64,000 nucleotides of DNA from Bradymonadia bacterium (lineage in GTDB: Bacteria; Myxococcota_A; Bradymonadia; UBA7976; UBA1532). The stretch spans positions 96,001-160,000 of the forward strand of contig JBKAGE010000038.1 of NCBI GenBank assembly GCA_046290225.1, written 5' to 3'. The notes below the pieces were generated by a model. It ran no database searches. It saw only the letters and a program-made list of their open reading frames with translations, and was not told where the DNA came from. Below, piece by piece: positions 33,706 to 38,800 of the stretch (positions within the stretch are counted from its first letter, which is position 1; each line of letters starts with the position of its first letter). The position numbers and the translations under genes were made by a program.

Positions 33706-35307
33706 TTGCGCCGCGCTGGACGACTGTCTGCATTTCTTCTCCCGGCCCTCGTGTGGGCCGCCCCTGCCCACAGCCAGGTCCGCCCAGGGAGCGTCGAGCT
33801 CGGCGTCTACGGCGGTTACTGGGAGGGTGACGGGATCCTCAAAGATGCCCCCATCATCGGTGGGCGCATCATGTACAACCTGAGCCGCATCTTCGGCCTC
33901 GAGGTCTCGTACGGCTTCGTGCCCACCGAGGCTGAGCGTTTCGAAGACGTGCCCACGGCCGGCGGCCTCACCCGCCAGGCCGTGACCGAGGATCAGAACG
34001 TCCACGAGACCTCTCTGAACCTGGTCGTGCACCTCAGCGACACCGTGATCACCCCCTACATCAGCGTGGGTGCCGACATGGTGAACGCCGAGGAGACGAG
34101 CTTCGGCCCCAACGTGGCCCTCGGCGCCAAGTACTACATGACCGAGGATCTCTCGCTCCGCGCCGACGTGCGGGCCTACTTCAGCGAGGATGATCAGTTC
34201 GGCAACAGCTTCTTCCACTCCGAGGCCACCCTGGGCCTGGGGTACCAGCTGGGCGGCGACTACGACATCGACAACGACGGCATCAAGAACGTCGACGATC
34301 AGTGCAAGACCAAGCCTGAGGACAAGGACGGCTTCGAAGACAGCGACGGCTGTCCTGAGCCCGATAACGATCAGGACGGCATCAAAGACGTCGACGACAA
34401 GTGTCCCAACGAGAAAGAGGATGCTGACGGCGATGCCGACGAGGACGGCTGCCCCGATCTCGACAAGGACGGCGACGGCGTCGACGACAAGGTCGACCAG
34501 TGCGTTGACACCCCCGAGGACAAGGACGGCTTCGAAGACGAGGACGGCTGCCCCGAGGATGACAACGACAAGGACGGCATCAAGGACGCCGAGGACAAGT
34601 GCCCCAACGAGGCCGAGGACAAGGACGGCTTCGAGGACACTGACGGTTGCCCCGACACCGACAATGACAAGGACAGCATCCTCGACACTGCGGACAAGTG
34701 CCCCGACGGCGCCGAGGATAAGGATGGCTTCCAGGACGAAGACGGCTGTCCTGATCCGGACAACGATCACGACGGCGTGCTCGACGCTGACGACAAGTGC
34801 CCCGCTGAAAAAGAGGTCATCAACGGCTTCGAAGACGAAGATGGCTGCCCCGACAAGGGTGCCTCCAAGGTGAAGATCACCCGCGAGGGCATCGAGATCC
34901 TGGAGCAGGTCTACTTCGAGAATGGCAAGGCTGTCATCAAGACCAAGAGCCTTGTCCTGCTCAACCAGGTGGCCCTCACCCTGAATGCCGCCGACTACGT
35001 GAAGAAGGTGGAGGTCCAGGGCCACACCGACGACCGCGGCAAGGATGCCGCGAACATGGAGCTCTCCCAGAAGCGCGCCGAGGCTGTCCGTGATTACCTC
35101 ACCAGCCGCGGCATCGCTGGCGATCGCCTCATCGCCAAGGGCTACGGCGAGACGCAGCCCATCGCCTCGAACAAGACCCGCAAGGGCCGGGCGACGAACC
35201 GCCGCGTGGCCTTCGTGATTCTCGAGCAGAAGCTCGTGGAAGAGGTCGAGGTGCCTGCTGAGAGCGGTAAGCCCGCTGAAGAGGCCCCCAAGAAGGAAGA
35301 GAAGTAA
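33706..35307 (+). CDS. OmpA-family protein: N-terminal beta-barrel, thrombospondin type-3 repeats, C-terminal peptidoglycan-binding domain
   Basis: Signal peptide, barrel ending LGLGYQL, six DxDxDG..D.CP..ED.DGF.D.DGCP units, then VQGHTD..N.ELSQKRAEAV..GYGE..P..NRRV. Confidence 0.93.
   Translation: MRRAGRLSAFLLPALVWAAPAHSQVRPGSVELGVYGGYWEGDGILKDAPIIGGRIMYNLSRIFGLEVSYGFVPTEAERFEDVPTAGGLTRQAVTEDQNVHETSLNLVVHLSDTVITPYISVGADMVNAEETSFGPNVALGAKYYMTEDLSLRADVRAYFSEDDQFGNSFFHSEATLGLGYQLGGDYDIDNDGIKNVDDQCKTKPEDKDGFEDSDGCPEPDNDQDGIKDVDDKCPNEKEDADGDADEDGCPDLDKDGDGVDDKVDQCVDTPEDKDGFEDEDGCPEDDNDKDGIKDAEDKCPNEAEDKDGFEDTDGCPDTDNDKDSILDTADKCPDGAEDKDGFQDEDGCPDPDNDHDGVLDADDKCPAEKEVINGFEDEDGCPDKGASKVKITREGIEILEQVYFENGKAVIKTKSLVLLNQVALTLNAADYVKKVEVQGHTDDRGKDAANMELSQKRAEAVRDYLTSRGIAGDRLIAKGYGETQPIASNKTRKGRATNRRVAFVILEQKLVEEVEVPAESGKPAEEAPKKEEK
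34264..34857 (+). repeat. Six coding 99-bp (33-aa) TSP3 tandem repeats
   Basis: Counted directly in the translation. Confidence 0.85.
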
Positions 35308-35380
35308 GCACGCTTCTCCCTGCCCCTCGCCCGCTTCAGGGCGCCATTCTCCCTCTCACATCTGATGGCCCGGCTCTGAC

Positions 35381-35817
35381 CTGTTGAGCGGACGGCCGTG
35401 CTTGCGCACCGCCTGTAGCGGACGGTCATCGCCTTGCGGCGACAGCCTGTGGCGGGCGCCTGAACCAGCTGTGCTGGTACAGAGCTGTAGCGGACGCCGA
35501 GTCTGCCTCCGGCAGCCTGAGCTGTAGCTTTTTTAAAGAGTTATGGTGTGCCTGGTGGGTTTCTCAACCCAGGTAGGGGCTTACGCTGGAACTGGTGCGT
35601 CAGGGCCAACTGCGTCTGCGGTAGATGAATCCACACACACCCCCCTCAACTGATCTTCAAAAGGCTACAGGGAATTTGCCGAAGGCAAATGAGCGTCCGC
35701 TACAGCTTTGCACCGGCGTAAGCCGGGGCAGGCGTCCGCTACAGACGCAGCGCAGCTGGGTCGTCCGCTACAGGCGGTGCCAAAGGCACGAAAGCTTTAG
35801 CTGGCCGTCCGCTCTAC
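35381..35817. repeat. Mirror-symmetric repeat/hairpin array (5+5 copies of CTGTAGCGGACG / CGTCCGCTACAG, some degenerate); possible structured ncRNA or MITE/BIME-like element
   Basis: Left copies at 35381, 35413, 35447, 35485, 35522 (partial). Right inverted copies at 35664 (partial), 35694, 35733, 35762, 35806. Each gap holds a short hairpin. Confidence 0.9.
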
Positions 35818-38800
35818 TTAACGACGATCTCACCCTCTTCAGTGAGCTCCACCATTTTGGTGATCGTGCCGTCTTTCTCGACGTTGAGCTTCAGCTCCGT
35901 CCGCGCCCGGGTCTCCTCGTCGAAGATCACCAGCTTCTGCTCGCCTTCTTCGATGGGGTGGTCCACCACTGGGGTCTTGCCGATCTCTTTGTTCCCCACA
36001 TAGACCGTGAGCTTCTGCTTCTTTTTGGCAGGCTTCACCGTCAGTTTGCCGAAGAACTTCGCCGGCGCGGTCATGCGGATGTAGATCGTGTAGTGGCTCT
36101 CCACCACATCGAGATCCCACTCCGCAGGATCATAGCCGTCGAGCTCAGCCCGGAGACGCAGCGGCGTATTCGGCTTGCGGCTCACCCGGAGTGGCTCGCG
36201 GCCACCAGCACGGCCCAGGGGCACCTTCGCGCCGGGCTCACTCATATCGAAGACCAGCGCCCCTGAGGGGATCGTCTCCACCATGATCGTCGACAGGGCC
36301 CTCGGGCCAGCATCAGGGACCATCCGGATGGCGATGTTCCGGTTCTCTTTCTCGCTCACCTTGAACCGTACGTGTTGAGGGTAGAAACCCTCCTTCGTCA
36401 GCTTCAGGCTGATGTCGTTGCGGGCACCCACCCGTGGGAAGCTCTTGGGGGTCTCACCCACGGCAGTGCCATTGATCTCGATTTGAGCACCCTCAGGGGC
36501 CGTCTCGACCTTCAAAGCGCCAAAGGCAGGCAAGCCTTCCTTCAGCTTGAAGTCGACATCAGCACCACCCTCGGCCACCTGAACCCTGCGCTCCGCGGGC
36601 AAAAAGCCGCCCAGCAGGACACGGACCGTCGAGGGACGGCCAACATAGGTCTCCACTGAGGTGGGCGTCTTGCCATCGAGCAAGTTGCCATTCACCACCA
36701 CCCGAGCGCCGAGGGGCTCACTGGTGATGCGCAGGATCGCCTTTCGAAGAGGCGGTGGTGGCGGTGCCTCTGTTGTCTGGCCCAGCTTTGGTTGCTCGAA
36801 GATGTTTGCAGTCTTGCCGAGCTTCGGCCCTTCGGTCTGGGTCATCAGGTAGTACAAACCGAAGCCGCCACCAGCCACCAGCAGCAGGATCACCAGGCCT
36901 GCGTAGCTGCGTCGAATGCGCAGCGACATCGAGAGGCTGCGCTCAGTCGGGGGTGGGTTCGACGGCTTGTTCTGAGCCTGCTTCTCTGCATCGGAGGCAG
37001 CAGTCAGATCAGGAGGCATCAGCAAAGCGCTCGCAGAGAGACGCGCTGACTCACCCGACCCCTTCACAGCAGACTCAGGGATCCGCATAGGCTGCTCTTG
37101 CGCTGCAGGAGAGGTCTGAGTCGCCGGTTGCACGGCGGGCGGAGCTGAAACAGGCGGCTGGGCAGCAGGCGGTGGGACAGGCTCTGACTGCATGGGGGCC
37201 GTGCGCCGCGGGTTGGGCGTCTCGAAGACAGGGATCTCCGGGCTCGGCGTCTGCTCGACCAGCGGCTGCTCGGGCGGTGCGGACACAGCGGGGCCCGCCG
37301 GGGTCTCTGTAGAGAGCTCGGCGATCAGACCAGTGGCAGGCGCCACAGGCGCTGCAGCAGGCTCCATCACAGTAGGGCCTTCCATGGGCCCGGGCTGGGG
37401 CGGAGGCGGATCGAGGAGCGGGTTGATCTCATCTGCCGAGGCCACCACGGTCACCACGGCCTCGGTGGCTGGACCTGGGGCCATCTCTGTGGGCGCCTCG
37501 AGATTCAGCGCCTGCTCTTCAGCAGAAGCAGGCATCGGTGCAGGGGCGCCCAAGTCGGGGGCGATGCTGGGGGCGATGTCGGCCTCGGGCACATCGAGGG
37601 AGGCCACCATCTCCGTCCTCGAATCGTCGAGTTCTACAGACTCGAGCATCGAGCCCGGCCCTGATGCCTGGGCAGGCTGAGCGCTCTCTGCCTGCTCTGG
37701 CTCCGATGCAGCAACTCCAGATGCAGTCGCTCCAGATGCCGTCGCTCCAGATGCTTCAGGCCCAGGTGCAGCCTCGGGATCTGGGGTCGCCTCGAGCAGC
37801 GCCGAAGGGATCGTCGAAAGCTGCGTGTCTCCAGTCGGGAAACCTTCCGCTGGGGTCATACCCGGCAACGCGGACTCGGCGTTCGAGTCAGTGGCCGGCA
37901 GGCTGGGTGATGGCTCCAACAAGTTGACCAGACCACCGGCAGGCTCACTCGCACGGGCCCGCTCGAGTTCCAGCGTCTCTCGGAAGAGGGTCTGCATGTA
38001 GTTGGCCAGCATGCCCGCGGTGGAGCGCATGCCTTCACCGGCGAGGAAGTCCTCCAGGGCGATCTGCATCGCCCGAGCATCCGGGTAGCGCGCCTCGGGA
38101 TCACGGGCGAGCGCCCGCATGATCACCTTCTCTAGGCGTTCGGGGAATTCGGGGTTCACCGAGCGAGGGGGCGGCACCTCGCACTGGGCCACCACGGCGA
38201 GTGTGTCTTCACCATCGGTGCCACGGAACAAGCGGCGGCCTACAGTGATCTCGTAGAGGTTGATGCCTGCAGCGAAGACGTCGGCCCGGGCGTCGACAGG
38301 GGCCTGAGTCACCTGCTCCGGCGACATGTAGCCAGCCTTGCCGGCGATCATCCCCGTGATCTCCTGAGGGCTCGAGGCATCTCGAGCGACCCCGAAGTCC
38401 ACCAGCTTCACCCCGCCGTCGAAGGTCACCAGGATGTTCGTGGGGGTGACGTCTTGATGCACGATGCCCAGGGCTTTGCCCTCTTTGTCCGATCGCGTGT
38501 GTGCGTAATGCAACGCATCGAGCACCTCGGCGACCACCCTCACGGCATGCTGGAGCGGCAGATAGTTGCCCTCAGCGATGCCCTGTGAGCAGACTCGGCG
38601 CAGGTCGACGCCATGGACGTATTCCATGGCGATGTAGTAGTCGTCCTGCTCACGTCCGAGATCGAAAATCTGGGCGATGTTGGGGTGGGTCAGCGCTGCT
38701 GCGATGCGCCCCTCTTCGAGGAACATCTGCACGCGATCGTCCTGCGACGCGAAGTTCGGCAGCAGGCGCTTGACCACGACCTCTTTTTCGAAGCCGCCCA

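What the first reader, a model, noticed from the sequence alone, without database searches (positions are those of the whole stretch)
35381..35817. Mirror-symmetric array: two head-to-head runs of a 12-nt repeat interleaved with unique hairpin spacers
Seen: the non-coding gap between the convergent ompA and kinase genes holds five left copies of CTGTAGCGGACG (35381, 35413, 35447, 35485, partial 35522). It also holds five inverted right copies CGTCCGCTACAG (partial 35664, 35694, 35733, 35762, 35806), spaced 29-44 nt. Every spacer differs in sequence yet forms a hairpin. Read outward from the centre the loops are purine-rich, mostly GNA/GNRA. Right arm (+): ATTTGCC-GAA-GGCAAAT, CCGGC-GTAA-GCCGG, CAGC-GCA-GCTG, GTGCC-AAA-GGCAC. 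Left arm (-): CTGCC-GGA-GGCAG, ACCAGC-ACA-GCTGGT, TCGCC-GCAA-GGCGA, GTGC-GCAA-GCAC. Inference: conserved structure with variable sequence implies selection on a single-stranded form. It could be a multivalent protein-binding RNA, a processed repeat-spacer RNA, a ssDNA substrate (GNA triloops are very stable in DNA) or a non-autonomous mobile element. It fits no CRISPR, REP or ncRNA family I recognise, and no cognate enzyme is adjacent.
Basis: partly seen in the sequence, partly recalled or inferred. Interest (0 to 1): 0.9.

Follow-up and report, generated by a model that had tools for sequence, protein, structure and literature searches.

The report
Mosaic hairpin repeat after stop codons
The mirror-image array is one copy of a roughly 440-base non-coding repeat found about 30 times in this bacterium's genome, wedged just after the stop codons of genes; it resembles known bacterial palindromic repeats (REP/BIME), but the enzymes known to handle those were not found here.

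Summary
The 12-mer CTGTAGCGGACG occurs 197 times in this 8.6-Mb genome against 2 for a control word. The copies lie in 45 clusters. About 28 clusters are full elements of about 440 bp: a 150-bp core between two inverted arms of [12-mer + hairpin]. Others are coreless, one-armed or minimal forms. The hairpin "spacers" come from five or so module classes in a fixed outer-to-inner order. Stems covary. Loops read C-TNC-G on the 12-mer strand, so C-GNA-G on the other. The 12-mers are far better kept than the cores: 1.6% against 12.8% per-site divergence. All 30 elements examined lie 3' of genes, often touching the stop codon. At one locus seven relatives keep the same convergent gene pair with -4 to 15 nt between the stops, against 404 nt here. 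I found no Rfam match, no RAYT, no small Ssn-type GIY-YIG gene, no IS110, no autonomous copy, and no copy in 27 genomes of the same family. The 12-mer holds GTAG, and CGTC on its complement, the two tags of known REP superfamilies. Verdict: a lineage-specific REP/BIME-like mosaic foldback element with an unknown partner.

The parts
35381..35394 (+). Left terminal repeat CTGTTGAGCGGACG (12-mer variant; the invariant part is AGCGGACG)
   Evidence: 60 of 74 terminal units genome-wide end in AGCGGACG
35395..35412 (+). Hairpin module A (GCCGTGC-TTGC-GCACCGC)
   Evidence: this exact spacer occurs 8 times in the genome
35413..35424 (+). 12-mer CTGTAGCGGACG, exact
35425..35446 (+). Hairpin module B (GTCATCGCC-TTGC-GGCGACAGC)
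   Evidence: B class has 24 instances and 9 variants that differ mainly in the loop
35447..35458 (+). Degenerate 12-mer CTGTGGCGGGCG (2 mismatches)
35459..35484 (+). Hairpin module C (CCTGAACCAGC-TGT-GCTGGTACAGAG)
35485..35496 (+). 12-mer, exact
35497..35521 (+). Innermost module I1 (CCGAGTCTGCC-TCC-GGCAGCCTGAG)
   Evidence: 34 I1 instances genome-wide
35522..35670 (.). Core, bounded by CTGTAGC...GCTACAG with T/A-rich edges. Homologous cores occur in 26 or more other copies and, more distantly, in the second family (Fam2).
   Evidence: RNA fold z -2.3 (+) and -2.8 (-)
35671..35693 (-). Innermost module I2 (on - strand CTCATTTGCC-TTC-GGCAAATTCC)
35694..35705 (-). 12-mer, exact (reads CGTCCGCTACAG on +)
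35706..35732 (-). Hairpin module C variant (CCTGCCCCGGC-TTAC-GCCGGTGCAAAG on - strand)
35733..35744 (-). 12-mer, exact
35745..35761 (-). Hairpin module D (ACCCAGC-TGC-GCTGCGT on - strand)
35762..35773 (-). 12-mer, exact
35774..35805 (-). Module A carrying a 13-nt palindromic micro-insert (35791-35803). The insert is absent in a contig of a related strain.
   Evidence: run X2, record 14: 13 letters left out at 35790
35806..35817 (-). Right terminal repeat (GTAGAGCGGACG on - strand). Its TAG is the stop codon of the kinase gene.

Best explanation
The region is one copy of a lineage-specific, non-coding mosaic foldback repeat ('Fam1'), closest in kind to tagged REP/BIME elements and hairpin MITEs. 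Shown: it is dispersed in the genome, and at one locus it is an insertion into the few bases between two convergent stop codons. Each arm is a head-to-tail chain of small GC-rich hairpins joined by an invariant 12-mer, in a fixed module order, around a less constrained core that is dispensable. Inferred: the 12-mer is a sequence-specific recognition site and the hairpins are structure-specific ones. Both would serve a trans-acting protein that works on extruded or single-stranded DNA, as RAYT does on GTAG REPs and Ssn on CGTC/NTS repeats, though neither enzyme was found here. That interaction, through copying, gene conversion or selection, would keep the arms intact in place while the cores drift. 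As a side effect the element gives both neighbouring genes a hairpin-rich 3' end.
For: Copy number and architecture:
- 197 exact 12-mers against 2 for the control word, in 45 clusters.
- 26 full-length core matches.
- Fixed module grammar, outer to inner: terminal unit, A, then B/A2/D, then C, then I1 or I2, then core.

Hairpins:
- 75 of 88 distinct spacers have a perfect stem of 4 bp or more, against 18% of shuffles (maximum 30%).
- In the 107 A/D modules the basal pair is G-C 67 times and A-T 40 times, never unpaired. Inner pairs use 2-3 Watson-Crick types with 3% or fewer unpaired.
- Loops in 268 spacers: first base T in 243, last base C in 203, 5' closing base C in 251. Only one loop is reversed. 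On the complementary strand this is C-GNA-G / C-GNNA-G, the very stable DNA mini-hairpin motif (abstracts of PMC3201870 and PMC13037366).
- A.C on the 12-mer strand (G.T wobble on the other strand) occurs 99 times against 27 for G.T on the 12-mer strand.

Constraint:
- 193 of 215 internal 12-mers are exact, 1.6% per-site divergence, against 12.8% over 123 core columns.
- Nearest-neighbour core identity has a median of 90% and a maximum of 94.6%.
- Two coreless copies at different loci share one junction.

Position and insertion:
- Of 30 elements, 20 lie between convergent genes, 10 between tandem genes and 0 between divergent genes. Stop codons lie in or within a few bases of the termini.
- Empty site: seven relatives have -4 to 15 nt between the same two stops, against 404 nt here, and the right gene keeps the same C-terminal length.
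- As ssDNA the whole element folds back on itself with z = -11.

Tags: the 12-mer holds GTAG, and CGTC on its complement, the two REP tags of PMC3733652 (sections 5-7 read).
Against: - No partner enzyme was found. PF01797 (Y1/RAYT) gave no match. PF01541 (GIY-YIG) matched only one 625-aa frame. PF02371 (IS110) gave no match.
- The four TnpB genes have unrelated ends.
- There is no autonomous copy of Fam1 or Fam2.
- No target-site duplication is visible.
- No two cores are closer than 94.6%, so there is no sign of recent jumping. Mobility is inferred from dispersal and from one empty site.
- Nearest-neighbour energies do not favour the GNA strand. The 12-mer strand is the more stable in 52 of 60 arms with RNA parameters and in 40 of 60 with DNA parameters.
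- Core orientation shows no bias against GC skew: 8/7/6/5.
- Compensatory changes in palindromic DNA can also arise by templated repair, without selection.
- The copies are related by descent, so the counts are not independent events.
- The C.C mismatch in A/D modules was part of how I defined that class.
Confidence: 0.55

Rival explanations
1. RNA-level 3'-end element. Because the arms are mirrored, transcripts entering from either convergent gene carry the same-sense CUGUAGCGGACG motifs between stable hairpins. The element would then act as a bidirectional terminator or insulator, an mRNA stabiliser against 3' exonucleases, or a multivalent site for an RNA-binding protein. This is not exclusive of the main explanation.
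For: All 30 elements examined lie 3' of a gene, and 20 of them lie between convergent genes. They start at or within a few bases of stop codons. Both core edges read CTGTAGC followed by a T-run when read inward; one of them was flagged as terminator-like. With RNA parameters the inward-read strand folds better in 52 of 60 arms. REPs are proposed to act in this way (PMC3733652 abstract; PMC3184786 passages).
Against: An RNA hairpin role does not explain an invariant 12-nt linker. On the inward transcript the loops are UNC, not a known stable RNA loop; the GNA/GNNA loops and most wobble pairs lie on the opposite strand. The T-runs do not directly follow a strong stem. Transcription has not been shown.
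Confidence: 0.2
2. Classical double-stranded MITE. The 12-mers would be multiple subterminal binding sites for a DDE-type transposase (as at the ends of Tn7 or Mu; recalled, not tested), and the hairpins would be incidental.
For: Inverted termini (YTGAGCGGACG ... CGTCCGCTCAR). Repeated subterminal sites in inverted orientation on the two arms. Arms better conserved than the interior.
Against: No target-site duplication. No parent element with these ends. The spacing between 12-mers varies from 26 to 44 bp, so there is no helical phasing. The hairpins are actively maintained with strand-specific loops, which a double-stranded site does not need.
Confidence: 0.15
3. The core is a structured small RNA gene and the arms are its flanking processing or terminator signals.
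For: Conserved blocks are shared by the cores of Fam1 and Fam2. A 251-nt contig in an RNA library holds another Fam1 copy.
Against: No Rfam match at E up to 10. Core folding is only weakly better than shuffles (z -2.3 and -2.8). The consensus fold is mostly the terminal inverted repeat. The core diverges eight times faster than the 12-mers. Coreless copies exist at two loci. No promoter-like site was found.
Confidence: 0.05

Closest known systems
GTAG-tagged REPs and BIMEs with RAYT (Y1 HUH) transposases (Di Nocera et al. 2013, PMC3733652, sections 5-7 and passages read; Nunvar et al. 2010, PMC2817692, listing and abstract only)
   Same: Small GC-rich hairpin units with an unpaired GTAG tag. 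Subfamilies with complementary stem changes. Clustering into mosaics. Position between convergent or unidirectional ORFs. Termini that supply stop codons. Species-specific families.
   Different: Units are chained head-to-tail by an invariant 12-mer; HT arrangements are rare in described REPs. Two such chains are mirrored around a 150-bp core in a fixed module order. No RAYT was found in a genome that is 99.4% complete.
CGTC-tagged REPs: dRS3/NTS repeats, NIMEs and the Ssn GIY-YIG ssDNA nucleases (Chenal et al. 2025, PMC11893778, sections 6, 7, 10 read; PMC3733652 section 6)
   Same: An oriented hairpin repeat with non-palindromic flanks, a CGTC motif and short purine-rich loops. Acts as single-stranded DNA. 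In Neisseria it forms large intergenic mosaics interleaved with other repeat modules.
   Different: Here CGTC is the first four bases of the 12-mer and lies 8 nt from the next stem. The stems are GC-rich, not AT-started. No small GIY-YIG gene was found.
Hairpin or foldback MITEs (Correia/NEMIS, ERIC, RUP, BOX, Chunjie; Delihas 2011, PMC3184786, passages read)
   Same: A few hundred bp, non-coding, multi-copy, with terminal inverted repeats and strong foldback. BOX is also modular.
   Different: No target-site duplication, no related IS, GC-rich, and arms made of ordered tagged hairpins.
Mini-hairpin DNA, d(GCGNAGC)/d(GCGNNAGC) (PMC13037366 and PMC3201870, abstracts only)
   Same: C-GNA-G and C-GNNA-G loops on one strand of nearly every module.
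   Different: That is a physical motif, not a genetic element. Its stability in these contexts was not measured, and the energy models I used do not show it.

Membership tests
GTAG-tagged REP / RAYT system | 20-40 bp GC-rich stem-loop units in high copy number | tested here: met
   268 parsed spacers of 12-34 nt; 85% of the distinct ones have a perfect stem of 4 bp or more
GTAG-tagged REP / RAYT system | Unpaired GTAG motif at one end of the hairpin | tested here: met
   Each hairpin is followed by CT-GTAG on the 12-mer strand. A dinucleotide between stem and tag is described for GTAG-1/2 (PMC3733652 section 5). Here the tag is part of a longer invariant 12-mer shared by neighbouring units.
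GTAG-tagged REP / RAYT system | A RAYT (Y1 HUH transposase, PF01797) gene in the genome | tested here: not met
   0 matches; the control search matched 6 of 14 reference genomes; genome 99.4% complete
GTAG-tagged REP / RAYT system | Extragenic, downstream of ORFs; termini can give the stop codon | tested here: met
   20 convergent, 10 tandem, 0 divergent of 30; stops overlap the termini
GTAG-tagged REP / RAYT system; BIME | Neighbouring units mostly in opposite orientation (HH/TT; alternating in BIMEs) | tested here: not met
   Units are head-to-tail within each arm; only the two arms are inverted
CGTC-tagged REP / Ssn (NTS, SRM) | CGTC directly abutting an 8-9 bp stem that starts with A/T pairs; loop of 4-5 nt; short tail | tested here: not met
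   CGTC begins the 12-mer, 8 nt before the next stem; stems are GC-rich with 3-4 nt loops
CGTC-tagged REP / Ssn (NTS, SRM) | A small single-domain GIY-YIG (Ssn) gene, often flanked by the repeats | tested here: not met
   The only PF01541 match lies in a 625-aa frame
MITE | Short, non-coding, multi-copy, with terminal inverted repeats | tested here: met
MITE | Target-site duplication | tested here: not met
   No direct repeat flanks the termini in the copies printed. At the empty-site locus the element fills the whole gap between the stops.
MITE | A parent IS with the same ends | tested here: not met
   Lone arms lead into other short repeats, not genes. No multi-copy repeat over 1 kb with these ends. 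Fam2 pairs are 150-900 bp.
IS200/IS605 derivatives (PATE) | Ends shared with a TnpA/TnpB element | tested here: not met
   Four tnpB genes are present but their ends are single- to three-copy and unlike Fam1; no TnpA
CRISPR | Repeats of about 23-50 nt in one orientation, with unique spacers | tested here: not met
   12-nt repeat, mirrored arms, and spacers that recur genome-wide in a fixed order. I did not search for cas genes.
Any Rfam RNA family | Match to a covariance model | tested here: not met
   The best of 5 hits scored 16.7 bits against a gathering threshold of 45

The most novel reading that the evidence does not exclude
The invariant 12-mer, which carries the GTAG and CGTC tags back to back, together with chains of C-GNA-G mini-hairpins, is the substrate of an undescribed single-strand-specific DNA enzyme. 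This enzyme would be neither RAYT nor Ssn. It would keep the arms intact in place by cutting and templated repair or conversion, and would seed new copies just after stop codons. Fam1, Fam2 and the minimal palindromes would all be products of that one system.
Probability: 0.2. Interest if true: 0.75.

Novelty: new variant of a known kind. Interest (0 to 1): 0.45.

Why it matters
REP-type repeats are abundant, but for many of them the handling enzyme is unknown. The CGTC class stayed an orphan until Ssn was described in 2025. This element combines both REP tags in one invariant linker. Its loops are strand-specific and point to a single-stranded DNA form. It is kept intact where it sits while its core drifts, in a genome where I found neither RAYT nor an Ssn-type gene. 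That makes it a defined bait (12-mer plus hairpin, either strand) for finding a new repeat-handling protein. It also matters for annotation: repeats of this kind fill many convergent gene junctions in this genome. 99 of 871 convergent spacers are 400-700 nt long, while 383 are under 25 nt. These elements also appear to be where the assembly breaks.

Tried and rejected
Searches outside this genome:
- Rfam at E up to 10 on 34800-36400, and on nine loci of the other repeat families: nothing usable.
- No tRNA or tmRNA in the window.
- A literature search for the 12-mer found only three unrelated papers. A search for Bradymonad + repeat + intergenic found one unrelated preprint.
- The 12-mer is at background level in 40 relatives.
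- BLAST of Fam1 and Fam2 against 27 genomes of the same family gave no match.
- The minimal palindrome pattern occurs 0-2 times per relative, the same as its control.
- The genome-contig scan gave 5 stretches and the metagenome scan gave 9. All are coding or unrelated tandem repeats, except a Haliangium MAG array.

Search for a partner gene:
- The 5-kb interval between two copies on C80 holds SPFH/Band 7 and glycosyltransferase genes.
- The 4.6-kb interval on C63 holds a VIT-domain protein.
- TnpB ends are unrelated.
- Self-BLAST and contig-end BLAST show only short repeats.

Empty sites:
- At the window's own locus the closest relative has a different downstream gene.
- Two further loci lacked synteny.

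Other tests:
- Sequencing runs gave contigs only, with no joint that skips the element. One 251-nt contig in a metatranscriptome library holds another Fam1 copy, which does not show transcription.
- Nearest-neighbour energies do not separate the strands.
- No sigma-70-like promoter was found.
- Core orientation shows no bias against GC skew.
- That both ends abut stop codons is largely explained by this genome's short convergent spacers, median 35 nt.

Full report
OBSERVATION. Exact CTGTAGCGGACG stands at 35413 and 35485 on the + strand and at 35694, 35733 and 35762 on the - strand. A 2-mismatch copy is at 35447. Terminal variants are at 35381-35394 and 35806-35817. Half copies CTGTAGC / GCTACAG bound a central 149-bp core. 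All five exact matches in the 64-kb window lie here. The eight spacers each form a local hairpin. The kinase stop codon lies inside the right terminal repeat.

NOT A ONE-OFF. The 12-mer occurs 105 + 92 times in the 8.58-Mb assembly of 83 contigs, against 1 + 1 for the reversed control word. The copies fall into 45 clusters.
- About 28 clusters have the pattern +++--- with roughly 203-211 bp between the inner copies. These are full elements of about 440 bp.
- 26 give full-length core matches with nhmmer.
- Two are coreless.
- Eight are single arms that run into other short repeat families.
- Seven are minimal forms.
- A search with the invariant 8-mer adds small palindromes of the type TGAGCGGACG-(GC or one hairpin)-CGTCCGCTCA. 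The pattern matches 20 places in this genome, some of them inside clusters already counted.

GRAMMAR OF THE ARMS. Read from outside to inside on the 12-mer strand, each arm runs as follows.
- A terminal unit, YTGAGCGGACG.
- A module of class A (RCCGYGC..GCRCCGY).
- Optionally B (GTCATCGCC-NNNN-GGCGACAGC), a second A, or D (ACCCAGC..GCTGCGT).
- A module of class C (CCTCGCC..GGCGAGAG, or CCTGC..GCAGAG with nested inserts).
- An innermost I1 or I2 module. Typically I1 is on one arm and I2 on the other (two elements differ).
- CTGTAGC and the core.
Modules are joined by the 12-mer. The "unique spacers" are therefore a small ordered vocabulary: 88 distinct sequences among 268 parsed.

HAIRPINS ARE MAINTAINED AND STRAND-SPECIFIC.
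- 75 of 88 distinct spacers have a perfect stem of 4 bp or more closing a 3-5 nt loop, against a mean of 18% (maximum 30%) in 200 shuffles.
- In the 107 A/D modules the basal pair is G-C in 67 and A-T in 40, never unpaired. I defined this class by its RCC..CGY frame, so its C.C mismatch is true by construction.
- Inner pairs use two or three Watson-Crick types, with at most 2 unpaired cases among 88.
- The first loop base is T in 243 of 268, the last is C in 203 (T in 49), and the 5' closing base is C in 251. A single loop is reversed.
- On the complementary strand, which reads outward from the core, this gives C-GNA-G and C-GNNA-G. That is the motif of very stable DNA mini-hairpins (abstracts of PMC3201870 and PMC13037366).
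- Non-Watson-Crick stem positions are A.C on the 12-mer strand (G.T wobble on the other strand) 99 times, against 27 for G.T on the 12-mer strand. Among distinct sequences the counts are 29 against 12.
- Against this, nearest-neighbour energies do not favour the outward strand. The 12-mer strand is the more stable in 52 of 60 arms with RNA parameters and in 40 of 60 with DNA parameters. To my knowledge these models carry no bonus for GNA loops.
- As single-stranded DNA the whole element folds back on itself. The left and right 12-mers pair and the modules stick out as branches (z = -11).

ARMS ARE CONSTRAINED, THE CORE IS NOT. 193 of 215 internal 12-mers are exact, a per-site divergence of 1.6%. 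The core diverges by 12.8% per site over 123 columns. The nearest-neighbour identity between cores has a median of 90% and never exceeds 94.6%. So there has been no recent burst, yet the 12-mers have not decayed. Either each inserted copy is under selection, or the arms are homogenised in place. Two coreless copies at different loci share the same junction, so the core is not needed for spread. The core folds only a little better than shuffles (z -2.3 and -2.8). Its consensus structure is mostly its terminal inverted repeat.

POSITION AND INSERTION. Of 30 elements, 20 lie between convergent genes, 10 between co-directional genes and none between divergent genes. Long inward-reading frames stop in or within a few bases of the termini, often on both sides. 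This genome has very short convergent spacers: the median is 35 nt and 383 of 871 are under 25 nt. That explains much of the two-sided contact with stop codons.

At C34:201797 the right-hand gene has orthologues of 71-79% identity in the 13 relatives' loci fetched. In seven of them the left-hand gene's homologue (29-35% identity) is also convergent. The stops there are -4 to 15 nt apart, against 404 nt here. The right-hand protein ends at the same residue position in all. This is a filled site against seven empty sites. No target-site duplication is visible. The window's own locus and two others lacked synteny.

RELATIVES AND PARTNERS.
- According to earlier notes of this scan, which I did not verify, the genome is an uncultured Bradymonadia (Myxococcota).
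- The 12-mer, both element families and the minimal palindromes are at background level or absent in 27-40 related genomes. None of those is of the same genus.
- Public genome and metagenome scans found nothing related, except a Haliangium MAG. It has a tandem array with a period of about 54 nt, CCTGTAGCGG.. plus hairpins, just after a stop codon.
- A second family in this genome (Fam2; 41 paired copies of about 540 bp) has a homologous core. Its arms are made of other GTA(G)-containing boxes and covarying hairpins. One copy has a Fam1 left arm and a Fam2 right arm.
- No RAYT, no small GIY-YIG gene and no IS110 were found. The four tnpB genes have unrelated ends. No autonomous copy was found.

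SEQUENCING RUNS. Only contigs were available. A DNA contig of a related strain spans the right end and lacks 13 nt (35791-35803) inside the outermost hairpin. An RNA-library contig of 251 nt holds another Fam1 copy, which does not show transcription.

COMPARISON WITH KNOWN FAMILIES. Di Nocera et al. 2013 (PMC3733652; abstract, sections 5-7 and passages read) sort most REPs into GTAG-tagged and CGTC-tagged superfamilies. They note complementary stem variants, a position between convergent or unidirectional ORFs, termini that give stop codons, and the rarity of head-to-tail dimers. Chenal et al. 2025 (PMC11893778; sections 6, 7, 10 read) show that the CGTC-type NTS/dRS3 repeats are cut as single-stranded DNA by the GIY-YIG nuclease Ssn.

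The 12-mer here contains GTAG, and its complement begins with CGTC. The element therefore works like a tagged REP/BIME. It fails the membership tests that matter: no RAYT, no Ssn, head-to-tail chains, a tag embedded in an invariant 12-mer, and a mirrored two-arm-plus-core design. It also fails MITE membership on target duplication and on a parent IS.

VERDICT. This is a real, lineage-specific, REP/BIME-like mosaic foldback repeat, not a singular array. It is a new variant of a known kind. Its most interesting open point is the unknown factor that reads the 12-mer and the hairpins, most likely on single-stranded DNA.

Noticed in passing
G000 C16:15470-16010 (L006) and about 40 other loci; chimera at C82:48339-48803 (L059): A second family (Fam2, about 540 bp, 41 paired copies). 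Its core is homologous to the Fam1 core, but its arms are built from other GTA(G) boxes (CCTGCGTAGGCG, CGCGTACACG, CCGGGTAGGCAGGG) and covarying hairpins. One copy has a Fam1 left arm and a Fam2 right arm.
   Followed up: partly
G000 C51:27109-27341 (L012) and C51:30099-30280 (L017), and many others: Two further GC-rich repeat families of about 220 bp (over 100 BLAST hits) and about 180 bp (about 75 hits). They look structured and have no Rfam match. Contig ends are dominated by such repeats.
   Followed up: partly
G000 C78:372561-373068: This Fam1 copy has an extra insert of about 160 bp in its core. The insert has its own inverted ends, so it is probably a nested small element.
   Followed up: no
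window 35791-35803; also C75:159532 and the long form of D modules: A 12-13-nt palindromic micro-insert (core AAAGCTTT) sits inside hairpin stems. At the window site it is absent from a related strain's contig (run X2).
   Followed up: partly
G000 C35:40056-41313, C35:142917-144199, C64:11624-12956 (L061-L063); C45:38100 (L064): Three TnpB-only IS200/IS605-like elements of about 1.3 kb (88% identical), ending in ...GGATGTCAA, plus a fourth tnpB gene. No Y1 TnpA was found in the genome.
   Followed up: partly
L003:480-1100 (Haliangium sp. MAG contig): A tandem array with a period of about 54 nt: CCTGTAGCGG(A/C).. followed by GC-rich hairpins, starting just after a stop codon. It has the same head motif as Fam1, in another order of Myxococcota.
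   Followed up: no
whole genome G000: Convergent-gene spacers are bimodal: 383 of 871 are under 25 nt and 99 of 871 are 400-700 nt. Repeat elements therefore occupy roughly a tenth of convergent junctions (crude ORF-based gene calls).
   Followed up: partly
L079 (relative G018), junction of the syntenic convergent pair: The 15-nt spacer between the two stops reads TGA-GCGGGCGGCCGCAGG-CTA. It resembles the minimal palindrome TGA-GCGGACGGCCGTCCGC-TCA of this genome. This may be chance in GC-rich DNA.
   Followed up: no
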